Part shown: positions 26,792-26,885 of the stretch, piece by piece
Position numbering within the stretch: position 1 is the first letter of the stretch
Layout: each line of letters starts with the position of its first letter
Virus record (IMG/VR): IMGVR_UViG_3300029952_000065
Direction: 5' to 3' (one strand)
Origin: a virus
DNA: 39,999 nt
Made by a program: the position numbers and the translations under genes
Notes under the pieces: model-generated
Seen by the model: the letters and a program-made list of their open reading frames with translations, nothing else
The model's database searches: none
What the model was told of the DNA's origin: nothing

Positions 26792-26885
26792 GGTGGGCAG
26801 CACTGGTGTGCGGCTGAGCCTTATAAACTCGGGAAAGCTCCAGATTAGAGCGACGGCGTGGGTTCAACTCCCCGGCCCACTACCA
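26792..26885 (+). tRNA. atypical long tRNA-like gene (possible pseudo-tRNA or unusual anticodon loop)
   Basis: Perfect acceptor ggtgggc/gcccact with CCA; T-loop ttcaact with only a 3-bp T-stem; best anticodon stem ctgag/ctcgg encloses a 9-nt loop ccttataaa; about 25-nt variable region containing gctc-cagatta-gagc. Confidence 0.4.

What the first reader, a model, noticed from the sequence alone, without database searches (positions are those of the whole stretch)
26792..26885. 94-nt tRNA-like gene with perfect acceptor and CCA but aberrant core
The acceptor stem is perfect and CCA is encoded, yet the only good anticodon stem (ctgag/ctcgg) closes a 9-nt loop ccttataaa. A 7-nt reading would give anticodon TAT with a broken closing pair. 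The variable region is about 25 nt with its own hairpin, and the T-stem has only 3 pairs. It could be a non-standard decoder (expanded anticodon loop), a regulatory tRNA mimic, or a decaying duplicate of the adjacent tRNA-Leu.
Basis: seen in the sequence. Interest (0 to 1): 0.5.

Follow-up and report, generated by a model that had tools for sequence, protein, structure and literature searches.

The report
Two-hairpin phage tRNA-Ile(UAU) gene
The odd 94-nt "tRNA-like" gene is a real member of a widespread, poorly described family of phage and bacterial isoleucine tRNAs that carry a normal UAU anticodon arm plus a second hairpin displaying GAU, the standard isoleucine anticodon; standard annotation tools miss these genes.

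Summary
A covariance model built only from ten unrelated viral-contig relatives hits window 26792-26885 end to end at 77.7 bits (E~8e-20); the next best tRNA in the window scores 37.9. The element is not a decaying copy of the neighbouring tRNA-Leu, and it does not have an expanded anticodon loop. It belongs to a five-helix tRNA family: 7-bp acceptor, D arm, arm-1 with loop CUUAUAA (anticodon UAU), arm-2 with loop Y-A-GAU-N-R, about 5 nt of linker, 5-bp T arm, A73 and usually an encoded CCA. All helices covary. The UAU arm and the GAU hairpin are strictly coupled in reciprocal searches (98/98). GAU sits 14-16 nt from the T arm, which is the canonical anticodon register. The C.A pair that makes the loop look 9 nt long is the commonest state in the family. 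The only lineage-specific defect is one bulged T-stem nucleotide. The family sits in tRNA arrays of phages and bacteria (many Acidobacteriota) and is unannotated in a cultured cyanophage. It most likely decodes AUA, which makes up 20% of Ile codons here. What the GAU hairpin does is inferred; a surrogate handle for IleRS is the leading idea. The family probably overlaps Mukai's "allo-tRNA(UAU)".

The parts
26792..26798 (+). Acceptor stem, 5' strand (GGTGGGC). Position -1 (26791) is T.
   Evidence: Pairs with 26875-26881. Helix 1 has compensatory changes at 7/7 pairs in the family. U at -1 in 26/35 members.
26800..26811 (+). Compact D arm: 4-bp stem GCAC/GTGC with tetraloop TGGT. Only one nucleotide (A26799) separates it from the acceptor stem.
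   Evidence: Helix 2 covaries. The identical D arm occurs in L057 and L094, with near-identical ones in L128, L224, L220 and L194. L011 has T26804C in the loop.
26814..26832 (+). Arm-1, the decoding anticodon arm: 5-bp stem CTGAG/CTCGG, a C26819.A26827 sixth position, and the 7-nt loop CTTATAA (26820-26826) with anticodon TAT at 26822-26824.
   Evidence: Stem covaries. In the arm-2-anchored scan, 98/98 members have UAU here with invariant U33. C.A is the commonest flanking state.
26837..26851 (+). Arm-2, the extra 'variable-arm' hairpin: GCTC / CAGATTA / GAGC, with GAT at 26843-26845 in the anticodon-like positions of a 7-nt loop.
   Evidence: Loop consensus Y-A-G-A-U-N-R (G 34/35, A 35/35, U 34/35). 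Stem covaries.
26852..26856 (+). 5-nt linker GACGG between arm-2 and the T stem. Its length equals a class-I variable loop.
   Evidence: Same or similar linker (GACGG / AACGG / AGACGG) in L128, L057, L094, L112, L224, L220. GAU-to-G52 spacing is 14-16 nt in 54/54 GAU-bearing members.
26857..26874 (+). T arm: CG(T)GGG / TTCAACT / CCCCG, i.e. 5 bp with T26859 bulged.
   Evidence: Only the window (T) and L011 (C) occupy the insertion column among 35 distinct members, and the T helix is 100% paired. The 7/5+bulge fold scores -32.7 kcal/mol against -25.3 for a 9/3 fold.
26875..26885 (+). Acceptor 3' strand GCCCACT, discriminator A26882, encoded CCA 26883-26885.
   Evidence: A73 in 35/35 members and CCA encoded in about 31/35. 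All other tRNAs of the window that were read also encode CCA.
26697..26779 (+). Adjacent tRNA-Leu(UAA), 12 nt upstream, probably the same transcription unit. It is a recurrent neighbour of this tRNA type.
   Evidence: Leu(taa) lies next to or close to the family member in L019, L028, L086, L133 and L247.
26233..26508 (+). PTH2-type peptidyl-tRNA hydrolase gene upstream (context only, not part of the RNA).
   Evidence: PF01981 is listed for the 88-aa product in strain contigs.
27043..27059 (+). Terminator-like hairpin followed by a T-run, about 160 nt downstream. Possible end of the transcription unit.
   Evidence: This is a consensus match only.

Best explanation
Window 26792-26885 encodes a member of a widespread 'two-hairpin' tRNA-Ile(UAU) family carried in phage and bacterial tRNA arrays.

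The RNA is a 7/5 cloverleaf with five helices. Arm-1 carries a canonical anticodon loop (C32-U33-UAU-A37-A38) and most likely reads the AUA isoleucine codon on the ribosome. This supplements a host in which AUA decoding is probably limiting. Arm-2 takes the place of a variable arm. It displays an invariant GAU, the ordinary tRNA-Ile anticodon, in a 7-nt loop that lies in exact canonical register with the T arm.

My preferred reading, which is an inference, is that arm-2 is a surrogate identity element. It would let a standard bacterial IleRS, or another GAU-recognising factor, accept a tRNA whose real anticodon (UAU) such enzymes handle poorly.

The window copy differs from all sampled relatives only by one bulged nucleotide in the T stem. 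Together with the compact D arm and the C.A sixth pair, that explains why ARAGORN and Rfam miss it.

Shown: family membership, the five-helix structure, UAU-GAU coupling, the spacing, the genomic context and AUA usage.
Inferred: expression, charging with Ile, decoding of AUA, and the role of arm-2.
For: Membership
- Model R1 was built from 10 IMG/VR sequences without the window. It scores the element at 77.7 bits, E = 8e-20, full length; other tRNAs in the window score <=37.9.

Structure
- 98.8% of cells paired and 21/27 pairs with compensatory changes in A1.
- 97.2% paired and 22/24 pairs compensatory across 35 distinct sequences in A2. Slid registers give 35-47% paired, and 0/500 shuffles reach the observed covariation score.

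Decoding arm
- A scan anchored only on the arm-2 loop plus the T loop gives 98/98 parsable unique sequences with UAU in a Y-U-UAU-R-N loop.

GAU hairpin
- In the set retrieved without requiring GAU, 44/59 MFE hairpin loops contain GAU.
- 54/59 have GAU 14-16 nt before G52.
- Loop columns: G 34/35, A 35/35, U 34/35.

tRNA features
- A73 in 35/35, CCA encoded in about 31/35, U at -1 in 26/35.

Context
- ARAGORN calls many relatives tRNA-Ile(tat) of 90-95 nt. They lie inside arrays of 10-35 tRNAs, typically one per anticodon, often next to Leu(taa) and Arg(tct).
- In the window the element lies 12 nt after tRNA-Leu(UAA) among about 20 tRNAs, none of them another Ile tRNA.

Demand
- 121 AUA codons, 20% of Ile codons and 12.9 per 1000, in the window's genes.

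Integrity of this copy
- Identical in 14 strain contigs. The 3 substitutions in L011 all lie at unpaired positions.
- The 7/5+bulge fold scores -32.7 kcal/mol, close to the MFE of -33.4.

Premise for the arm-2 role
- E. coli IleRS charges tRNA-Ile(UAU) at about 1% of the LAU form (PMC3575796).

Precedents
- A T-stem bulge is tolerated in functional tRNAs: the A51a bulge of selC* tRNA-Cys was dispensable (PMC5389517).
- An array-borne tRNA-Ile(TAT) is expressed in Mycobacterium mucogenicum (PMC6582537). Whether that tRNA has the extra hairpin was not stated and was not tested here.
Against: - There is no expression, charging or decoding data for this gene or for any family member.
- The T-stem bulge is private to this lineage and could impair EF-Tu binding or processing.
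- Ordinary single-arm tRNA-Ile(UAU) genes of 72-78 nt are also common in phages (108/120 loci). The GAU arm is therefore not generally required for a phage AUA decoder.
- Arm-2 has A rather than U at the position equivalent to 33 in 32/35 members, and position 37 is variable. It is not a faithful copy of the tRNA-Ile anticodon loop, in which t6A37 contributes to recognition by IleRS.
- For IleRS to read arm-2, the five-way junction would have to present arm-2 where the anticodon arm normally sits. Nothing here tests that.
- E. coli tRNA-Ile determinants outside the loop (C4-G69, U12-A23, C29-G41; recalled from the literature) are absent in the window copy.
- Mukai et al. found six allo-tRNA(UAU) inactive in E. 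coli after changing the anticodon to CUA. That assay scored Ser/Ala insertion and would also destroy anticodon-dependent Ile identity, so it is only weakly informative.
- Both collection scans that defined the family were capped at 120 rows, so all counts are samples.
Confidence: 0.6

Rival explanations
1. Non-translational tRNA mimic. The RNA is made but is not used in decoding. It might act as a decoy or sponge for a host factor that recognises tRNA-Ile anticodon loops (an anticodon nuclease, a toxin of a toxin-antitoxin system, a modification enzyme or IleRS itself), or as a regulatory RNA. This is what Mukai et al. proposed for most allo-tRNA(UAU).
For: - Two exposed Ile-type loops (UAU and GAU) on one scaffold would suit a decoy.
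- Mukai et al. found six allo-tRNA(UAU) inactive in E. coli and linked them to toxin-antitoxin loci and transposons.
- The window encodes RNA-repair and tRNA-hygiene proteins nearby: PTH2, RlaP and a HAD_PNKP fragment. These hint at conflict over tRNAs.
- Single-arm UAU tRNAs already cover the decoding job in many other phages.
Against: - The family keeps every hallmark of a translated tRNA under covariation: 7/5 acceptor/T branch, U33, A37, A73, encoded CCA, the G18G19 and T-loop motifs, and U at -1.
- It occupies the AUA-decoder slot in otherwise one-per-anticodon arrays.
- The phage uses AUA heavily.
- Mukai's assay removed the UAU anticodon, so it does not test Ile-dependent function.
Confidence: 0.2
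2. Pseudogene: a once-functional family member that has been inactivated in this phage lineage by the 1-nt insertion in the T stem.
For: - The insertion is unique to the window lineage among 35 distinct members.
- ARAGORN calls most relatives but not this copy.
- The inserted base differs between strains (T vs C), and L011 carries 3 substitutions in 94 nt against about 0.2% divergence overall.
Against: - Apart from the bulge, all 25 helix pairs are standard pairs, 23 Watson-Crick plus two G.U wobbles (G1.U72 and U24.G40).
- Every conserved loop motif is intact, and the model score is still 77.7 bits.
- The three L011 changes all hit unpaired positions, and one (A26866G) restores the consensus T loop TTCGA.
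- The gene is retained at the same place in all 15 strain contigs.
- Bulged T stems occur in functional tRNA-Sec and selC* tRNA-Cys.
- It is the only Ile-type tRNA found in the window.
Confidence: 0.12
3. Missense or recoding tRNA. The long extra arm plus A73 makes it a substrate of LeuRS (as for nematode nev-tRNA-Ile(UAU)) or of SerRS (as for allo-tRNAs), so that AUA would be read as Leu or Ser.
For: - The shape is class-II-like, and A73 is also the Leu discriminator.
- nev-tRNA-Ile(UAU) is leucylated in vitro (PMC4300185 abstract).
- Allo-tRNAs insert Ser at Leu codons in E. coli.
Against: - A73 rather than G73/U73 argues against Ser identity.
- Six allo-tRNA(UAU)-to-CUA variants did not insert Ser or Ala.
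- The extra arm is short, with a 7-nt loop of conserved sequence GAU. This is unlike Leu or Ser variable arms and points specifically to isoleucine.
- With AUA at 12.9 per 1000 codons, global Ile-to-Leu/Ser substitution would affect most phage proteins.
Confidence: 0.06

Closest known systems
allo-tRNA(UAU) of Mukai et al. 2017 (NAR 45:2776; PMC5389517)
   Same: - Found as sub-threshold tRNA-Sec look-alikes (the window scores 27.4 bits and S-SRM01 32.1 bits against a gathering score of 47).
- UAU anticodon, long extra arm, D tetraloop and a longer anticodon stem.
- Soil, peat and Acidobacteria provenance.
- The paper describes its UAU group as having 'slightly different' cloverleaves, destabilising mismatches and 'five-stem-junction structures'.
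- It is probably the same family, or an overlapping one.
   Different: - Allo-tRNAs are defined by an 8/4 or 9/3 acceptor/T branch and mostly G73/U73. This family is 7/5 by covariation with A73 in 35/35.
- The paper's main text does not mention the GAU loop, its coupling to UAU, the canonical spacing or residence in tRNA arrays. It favours a non-translational role.
Class-I bacterial and phage tRNA-Ile(UAU), e.g. Mycoplasma mobile tRNA-Ile2 (PMC3575796), and array-borne tRNA-Ile(TAT) (PMC6582537)
   Same: Same anticodon loop type (C/U-U-UAU-A-N), A73 and presumed AUA decoding. Common in phage tRNA clusters. One array-borne example is expressed.
   Different: These are 72-78 nt with a 4-5-nt variable loop and no second hairpin. 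In M. mobile the charging problem is solved on the enzyme side (IleRS Arg865), not on the tRNA.
tRNA-Ile2(CAU to lysidine), the usual bacterial AUA decoder
   Same: Same codon and the same slot in the decoding table. Co-resident Met(cat)-type genes in the arrays may include such tRNAs.
   Different: It depends on TilS modification of C34. It is a class-I structure with no GAU hairpin.
Nematode nev-tRNA-Ile(UAU) (PMC4300185)
   Same: A tRNA with a UAU anticodon and an added variable arm.
   Different: It is eukaryotic and leucylated through the V-arm. No conserved anticodon-like loop is reported. Its origin is independent.
tRNA-Sec (Rfam RF01852)
   Same: Overall length of about 90-95 nt, 4-nt D loop, long extra arm, and a sixth anticodon-stem pair.
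   Different: The score is below the gathering threshold. The anticodon is UAU rather than UCA, the geometry is 7/5 rather than 8/5, and the -2:74 pairing used in the Sec alignment is not conserved (3/35).

Membership tests
Two-hairpin tRNA-Ile(UAU) family (defined operationally here, model R1) | Full-length, significant match to a covariance model built without the query | tested here: met
   77.7 bits, E = 8e-20, model positions 1-92 of 92, at 26792-26885.
Two-hairpin tRNA-Ile(UAU) family (defined operationally here, model R1) | Arm-1 loop Y-U-UAU-R-N | tested here: met
   CTTATAA at 26820-26826. Family: 98/98 in the arm-2-anchored scan.
Two-hairpin tRNA-Ile(UAU) family (defined operationally here, model R1) | Arm-2 hairpin with GAU at loop positions 3-5, lying 14-16 nt before G52 | tested here: met
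   GCTC-CAGATTA-GAGC at 26837-26851. The distance is 15 nt, counting the bulged base.
Two-hairpin tRNA-Ile(UAU) family (defined operationally here, model R1) | 7-bp acceptor and uninterrupted 5-bp T stem, A73 | tested here: inconclusive
   The 7-bp acceptor and A73 are met. The T stem has all 5 pairs but is interrupted by a 1-nt bulge that no other sampled member has.
Canonical tRNA (Rfam RF00005; ARAGORN) | Score at or above the gathering threshold (29 bits), or a call by ARAGORN | tested here: not met
   Not listed at gathering. In the E<=10 scan the only clan-CL00001 match kept is tRNA-Sec. ARAGORN makes no call, although it calls many relatives tRNA-Ile(tat).
tRNA-Sec (RF01852) | Gathering score of 47 bits, UCA anticodon, 8/5 (bacterial) acceptor/T branch | tested here: not met
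   27.4 bits. The anticodon is UAU. The geometry is 7/5 by covariation. The extended -2:74 pair is not conserved.
allo-tRNA (Mukai 2017) | 12-bp acceptor branch in 8/4 or 9/3 configuration | tested here: not met
   Family helices are 7 and 5 bp, each with compensatory changes. For the window sequence a 9/3 fold scores -25.3 against -32.7 kcal/mol for 7/5+bulge.
allo-tRNA (Mukai 2017) | Long V-arm, D stem with tetraloop, and an anticodon stem longer than 5 bp | tested here: met
   15-nt extra hairpin, D tetraloop TGGT on a 4-bp stem, and a 5-bp stem plus a sixth C.A position. Other subfamilies have ordinary D arms.
allo-tRNA (Mukai 2017) | Discriminator G73 or U73 (Ser identity) in most members | tested here: not met
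   A73 in the window and in 35/35 relatives.
allo-tRNA (Mukai 2017) | Sequence identity or similarity to the published allo-tRNA(UAU) sequences (Supplementary Fig. S5) | not testable with these tools
   The supplement is not held. Published 8/4 and 9/3 scaffolds (PMC7590224 supplement) all carry engineered CUA anticodons. MAFFT did not align them consistently with their structure, so no model was built.
Bacterial tRNA-Ile identity set (E. coli: anticodon-loop nucleotides, A73, C4-G69, U12-A23, C29-G41; recalled from Nureki et al. 1994) | A35, U36, A37, A38 and A73 | tested here: met
   Loop C-U-U-A-U-A-A, with A at 26882.
Bacterial tRNA-Ile identity set (E. coli: anticodon-loop nucleotides, A73, C4-G69, U12-A23, C29-G41; recalled from Nureki et al. 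1994) | G34 or lysidine-34 in the decoding anticodon, plus stem pairs C4-G69, U12-A23 and C29-G41 | tested here: not met
   Position 34 is U. The window has G4-C69, A12-U23 and G29-C41 (read). G34-A35-U36 is present only in arm-2. The host, and therefore the relevant IleRS, is unknown.

The most novel reading that the evidence does not exclude
These are 'two-headed' tRNAs in which charging and decoding are read from different hairpins. Arm-2 presents the GAU anticodon that ordinary bacterial IleRS recognises, so the tRNA is isoleucylated in any host. Arm-1 presents UAU to the ribosome to read AUA without needing TilS/lysidine or a specialised IleRS. In effect this is a portable, host-independent AUA decoder carried by mobile tRNA arrays. 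In the minority of members with a fully canonical C-U-GAU-A-A loop in arm-2, that arm might even decode AUY.
Probability: 0.3. Interest if true: 0.85.

Novelty: new variant of a known kind. Interest (0 to 1): 0.62.

Why it matters
AUA is the one sense codon that bacteria cannot read with a plain Watson-Crick/wobble tRNA. It normally needs lysidine (made by TilS) or a specialised IleRS. A mobile tRNA that carries its own synthetase handle would be a third solution, and it would sit on the tRNA rather than on an enzyme. It would also be a natural example of separating tRNA identity from the anticodon, which interests people working on genetic-code engineering.

There is a practical point as well. 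The family is invisible to Rfam's tRNA model, is called inconsistently by ARAGORN, and is absent from the RefSeq annotation of a cultured cyanophage (S-SRM01). Phage and MAG tRNA inventories, and conclusions about codon-usage compensation drawn from them, are therefore systematically missing an AUA decoder.

The result may also re-interpret Mukai's most abundant 'allo-tRNA' group as array-borne isoleucine tRNAs rather than inactive relics.

Tried and rejected
- Direct similarity searches of the window and the element against annotated phages found nothing. An exact 22-mer of the anticodon arm is absent from IMG/VR.
- Synteny through flanking proteins failed. The only PTH2 relative (L001) has no tRNAs nearby, and the 140-aa neighbour has no relatives.
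- The fifteen strain contigs are more than 99.3% identical, so they say nothing about conservation apart from L011.
- 9-bp or 8-bp acceptor readings (suggested by the Rfam Sec alignment and by hand) are rejected. The -2:74 pair is conserved in 3/35 members. The family covaries as 7/5. The 9/3 fold is 7.4 kcal/mol worse.
- A duplicate of the adjacent tRNA-Leu is rejected (0.56 identity, which is background).
- A covariance model of published allo-tRNA scaffolds was abandoned because MAFFT misaligned the D and V stems.
- Arm-2 stems do not resemble the anticodon stems of co-resident canonical tRNA-Ile(GAU) genes; only the loop is conserved.
- Codon-mimic or kissing-loop pairing between arm-2 (A-U-N) and the UAU loop was checked by hand. 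No register gives more than three pairs, and it would not explain the invariant G.
- The other over-long tRNAs of the window (Asn, Gln) have extra hairpins without anticodon-like loops, so this is not a general 'repeat the anticodon' rule.
- Literature searches for two or dual anticodon arms, long-variable-arm tRNA-Ile, and tRNA arrays found no description of the GAU hairpin.
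Full report
**1. The observation**

- Acceptor: 7 bp, GGTGGGC/GCCCACT, with pair 1-72 a G.U wobble.
- 3' end: A73 and an encoded CCA.
- D arm: compact, GCAC-TGGT-GTGC.
- Anticodon arm: stem CTGAG/CTCGG around CCTTATAAA.
- Variable region: 24 nt with its own hairpin, GCTC-CAGATTA-GAGC.
- T loop: TTCAACT, flanked by only three contiguous pairs.

ARAGORN finds 19 tRNAs in the window but not this one. Rfam's tRNA model does not reach its gathering score. The only Rfam signal is a full-length but sub-threshold match to tRNA-Sec, at 27.4 bits against a gathering score of 47. Folding energy alone is not significant, z = -1.34.

**2. Context**

The window is part of a huge phage.
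- All long ORFs are on the + strand and GC is about 44%.
- It encodes an NAD-dependent ligase, an AAA ATPase, ABC-transporter-like proteins, a major-vault-protein-like protein and an RlaP-family protein.
- Its only distant relative among annotated phages is the 440-kb Salicola phage SCTP-2.
- A PTH2 peptidyl-tRNA hydrolase gene lies just upstream.
- The phage is abundant in peat and bog metagenomes. Fifteen strain contigs were recovered, all more than 99.3% identical to the window. The element is identical in fourteen of them.
- L011 carries three substitutions: T26804C, T26859C and A26866G. All fall at unpaired positions of the structure derived below.

**3. Finding relatives**

Similarity and synteny searches failed. 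I then scanned IMG/VR for a UAU anticodon loop, a gap the size of a long variable arm, and the T-loop consensus. Seventy-nine matches had acceptor pairing in the right place and 59 unique full-length sequences could be extracted.

ARAGORN calls many of them tRNA-Ile(tat) of 90-95 nt. They lie inside phage tRNA arrays, often beside tRNA-Leu(taa) and tRNA-Arg(tct). That matches the window, where the element lies 12 nt after tRNA-Leu(UAA).

**4. Architecture and membership**

Parsing the sequences showed one architecture throughout: acceptor (7 bp), D arm, arm-1 (5-7 bp, loop CUUAUAA), 0-6 nt, arm-2 (3-6 bp, ~7-nt loop containing GAU), 5-6 nt, T arm (5 bp), A73, CCA.

Ten relatives from two subfamilies, without the window, were aligned. 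On this alignment the five-helix structure is 98.8% paired, 21 of 27 pairs show compensatory changes, and the covariation score is 0.90 against 0.24 for shuffles and <=0.21 for slid registers.

Model R1, built from that alignment, matches window 26792-26885 end to end at 77.7 bits (E = 8e-20). Every canonical tRNA of the window scores <=37.9 bits.

A model-guided alignment of 39 members (35 distinct) confirms the structure. It is 97.2% paired, 22 of 24 pairs are compensatory, and 0 of 500 shuffles reach the observed score.

In that alignment:
- The discriminator is A in 35/35.
- The arm-2 loop is Y-A-G-A-U-N-R (G 34/35, A 35/35, U 34/35).
- Only the window (T) and L011 (C) have a residue in an insertion column inside the T stem. 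With that base bulged, all five T-stem pairs are standard.

Threading the window sequence gave these energies:

| Fold | kcal/mol |
|---|---|
| 7/5 + bulge | -32.7 |
| 9/3 | -25.3 |
| MFE | -33.4 |

**5. The '9-nt loop'**

The pair flanking CUUAUAA across 59 unique viral members is C.A in 13, U.G in 11, C-G in 9, A-U in 9, A.A in 5, U-A in 5, G-C in 5, U.U in 1 and C.U in 1.

Within the window's own subfamily it switches between C.A, A.A, C-G and U.G.

The C.A is therefore a common family state of a sixth stem position, not a private lesion. The functional loop is the canonical 7-nt C32-U33-UAU-A37-A38.

**6. Coupling of the two hairpins**

Both earlier scans required CTTATAA, so I ran the reciprocal scan. 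It was anchored on CAGATTAG plus the T loop, with arm-1 left free. Of 103 unique sequences, 98 had an upstream hairpin with a 7-nt loop. All 98 carry UAU at the anticodon positions, with U33 invariant and positions 32 and 38 variable.

In the other direction, using the set retrieved without any GAU requirement:
- 44 of 59 minimum-free-energy hairpin loops contain GAU, by far the most enriched triplet.
- 54 of 59 have GAU 14-16 nt upstream of G52. That is the spacing between anticodon position 36 and position 52 in a class-I tRNA with a 4-5-nt variable loop.

From arm-2 to the 3' end, the molecule is in the register of a canonical tRNA-Ile(GAU). R1 accordingly aligns the anticodon arms of ordinary tRNAs to arm-2. 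Arm-2 mostly has A where U33 would be, so it is unlikely to decode. Arm-1 has every feature of a decoding loop.

**7. Distribution**

A more specific pattern scanned over one genome per bacterial and archaeal species gave 110 loci. Dozens of them score 45-85 bits with R1.

They include many Acidobacteriota (Bryobacterales, Terriglobales/Terriglobia, Solibacter, Angelobacter, Granulicella). Also present are Xanthobacteraceae, Rhodobacteraceae, Nostoc, Lysobacteraceae, Elusimicrobiota and others. Some are on Mb-scale contigs and some are in cultured isolates.

The gene again lies in arrays of 10-27 tRNAs, usually together with a canonical tRNA-Ile(gat) and a tRNA-Met(cat).

A cultured T4-like cyanophage, Synechococcus phage S-SRM01, has a clean member (88.8 bits) next to tRNA-Met(cat) and tRNA-Leu(taa). 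RefSeq annotates nothing there. Rfam's tRNA model misses it, and tRNA-Sec scores 32.1 bits.

**8. Function**

The window's genes use AUA for 20% of isoleucine codons, 12.9 per 1000. No other Ile tRNA is present in the window.

The best-supported reading is a translational AUA decoder. This rests on the covarying cloverleaf, U33/A37/A73/CCA, U at -1 in 26/35, and the 'one per anticodon' array context.

The role of arm-2 is inferred. E. coli-type IleRS charges a UAU tRNA-Ile at about 1% of normal efficiency, and Mycoplasma mobile solves this with a change in the enzyme (PMC3575796). An invariant GAU on a second anticodon-like arm, in canonical register and strictly coupled to UAU, suggests a solution on the tRNA side: a surrogate identity element.

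Several points count against this idea:
- Single-arm tRNA-Ile(UAU) genes are also common in phages, with ARAGORN calls in 108 of 120 loci.
- Arm-2 has A33 and a variable position 37.
- IleRS would have to find arm-2 in the anticodon-arm position of a five-way junction. Nothing here tests that.

I therefore put about 0.6 on 'functional AUA-decoding tRNA of this family' and about 0.3 on the surrogate-anticodon mechanism.

**9. Rivals**

- Pseudogene (0.12). Supported by the private T-stem bulge. Opposed by intact pairs and motifs, the strain data, and precedents for bulged T stems in functional tRNAs.
- Non-translational mimic or decoy (0.2). This was Mukai's suggestion for allo-tRNA(UAU) and it fits the nearby RNA-repair genes. 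It is hard to square with the full set of tRNA hallmarks kept under selection.
- Leu or Ser missense tRNA (0.06). It has analogues in nev-tRNAs and allo-tRNAs. A73, the isoleucine-specific GAU motif and the heavy use of AUA argue against it.

**10. Relation to known families**

The closest described class is the allo-tRNA(UAU) group of Mukai et al.. It shares the route of discovery (false-positive tRNA-Sec hits), the anticodon, the habitat and the mention of five-stem junctions.

The strict allo-tRNA definition is not met: it requires an 8/4 or 9/3 branch and G73/U73. The paper's main text does not mention the GAU loop or residence in tRNA arrays. Its supplementary sequences could not be read.

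I therefore classify the finding as a new variant of a known kind. The window gene is a new, slightly aberrant member. The family-level regularities (UAU-GAU coupling, canonical spacing, array context, annotation blind spot) appear to be undescribed in the literature I could search.

**11. Caveats**

- Collection scans were capped at 120 rows, so counts are samples rather than totals.
- The genome scan required W-GAT, so it cannot be used to estimate GAU conservation.
- Alignment A2 is fitted to the model.
- The host of the window phage is unknown.
- The E. coli identity determinants and the RNase P preference for U at -1 are recalled from the literature, not tested here.

Noticed in passing
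window 37030-37116 and 37225-37313: tRNA-Asn(GUU) of 87 nt and tRNA-Gln(CUG) of 89 nt both carry an extra variable-arm hairpin, although Asn and Gln are class-I isotypes. Their extra loops (GUAA, AUU) are not anticodon-like. Similar over-long Asn, Pro and Met tRNAs occur in other phage arrays (L086 2259-2346 and 1593-1679, L018 1175-1258, L133 426-512).
   Followed up: partly
window 37614-37684: ARAGORN reports 'tRNA-??? (ta)' with an abnormal anticodon loop. Rfam calls it a tRNA at 44.5 bits. The stem GCGCC/GGCGC encloses AUUAAC (6 nt). This may be a UUA/UAA-type or otherwise non-standard decoder. The acceptor stem is also imperfect.
   Followed up: no
window 39728-39801: A further tRNA detected by Rfam (36.6 bits) but not by ARAGORN.
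   Followed up: no
window 26233-26508, 23677-24405, 33108-33941, 29415-29648: tRNA- and RNA-hygiene genes are interspersed with the tRNA clusters: a PTH2 peptidyl-tRNA hydrolase, a SprT-like protein, an RlaP (RNA-repair-pathway nucleotidyltransferase family) protein and a short HAD_PNKP-like ORF. This suggests conflict with host tRNA-targeting defences.
   Followed up: partly
window 30351-32831: An 826-aa protein with major-vault-protein shoulder and vault-repeat domains (PF11978 at 3.6e-26, PF17795). This is unusual for a phage. It is conserved in the strain contigs.
   Followed up: no
L011 3285-3543 (window 26804-27050): Six of the eight differences between L011 and the window over 4 kb cluster in 250 bp covering the tRNA gene and the spacer downstream. 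This looks like a recombination patch from a more divergent relative, or a local hotspot.
   Followed up: partly
window ~27800-29900: Gene content varies among otherwise >99% identical strains. For example, a 140-aa ORF is split into 109 + 35 aa, a 231-aa ORF is replaced by 187- or 191-aa versions, and there are alignment breaks at 28289-28426 and 29154-29662.
   Followed up: no
L247 1501-1591 (NC_070963.1 32944-33034): The cultured Synechococcus phage S-SRM01 has an unannotated two-hairpin tRNA-Ile(UAU) (R1 88.8 bits). It lies between hypothetical genes and an HNH endonuclease, and is followed by tRNA-Met(cat) and tRNA-Leu(taa). It does not encode CCA.
   Followed up: yes
L020 7918-8355: A family member lies 4 nt from a phage-encoded tmRNA gene (tag peptide ANDTTPLALAA).
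   Followed up: no
L193 6518-6604, L161 3444-3520, L184 7672-7745, L224 2933-3016, L154 279-367, L086 5537-5610: tRNA arrays in Acidobacteriota and other assemblies, and in the viral contig L086, contain tRNAs with A34 anticodons that are unusual for bacteria: Ser(act), Cys(aca), Gly(acc), Ile(aat), Ser(aga), Thr(agt). Array-borne tRNA-Ile(GAU) genes sometimes have C at position 33 (CCGAUAA in L184 and L048).
   Followed up: no
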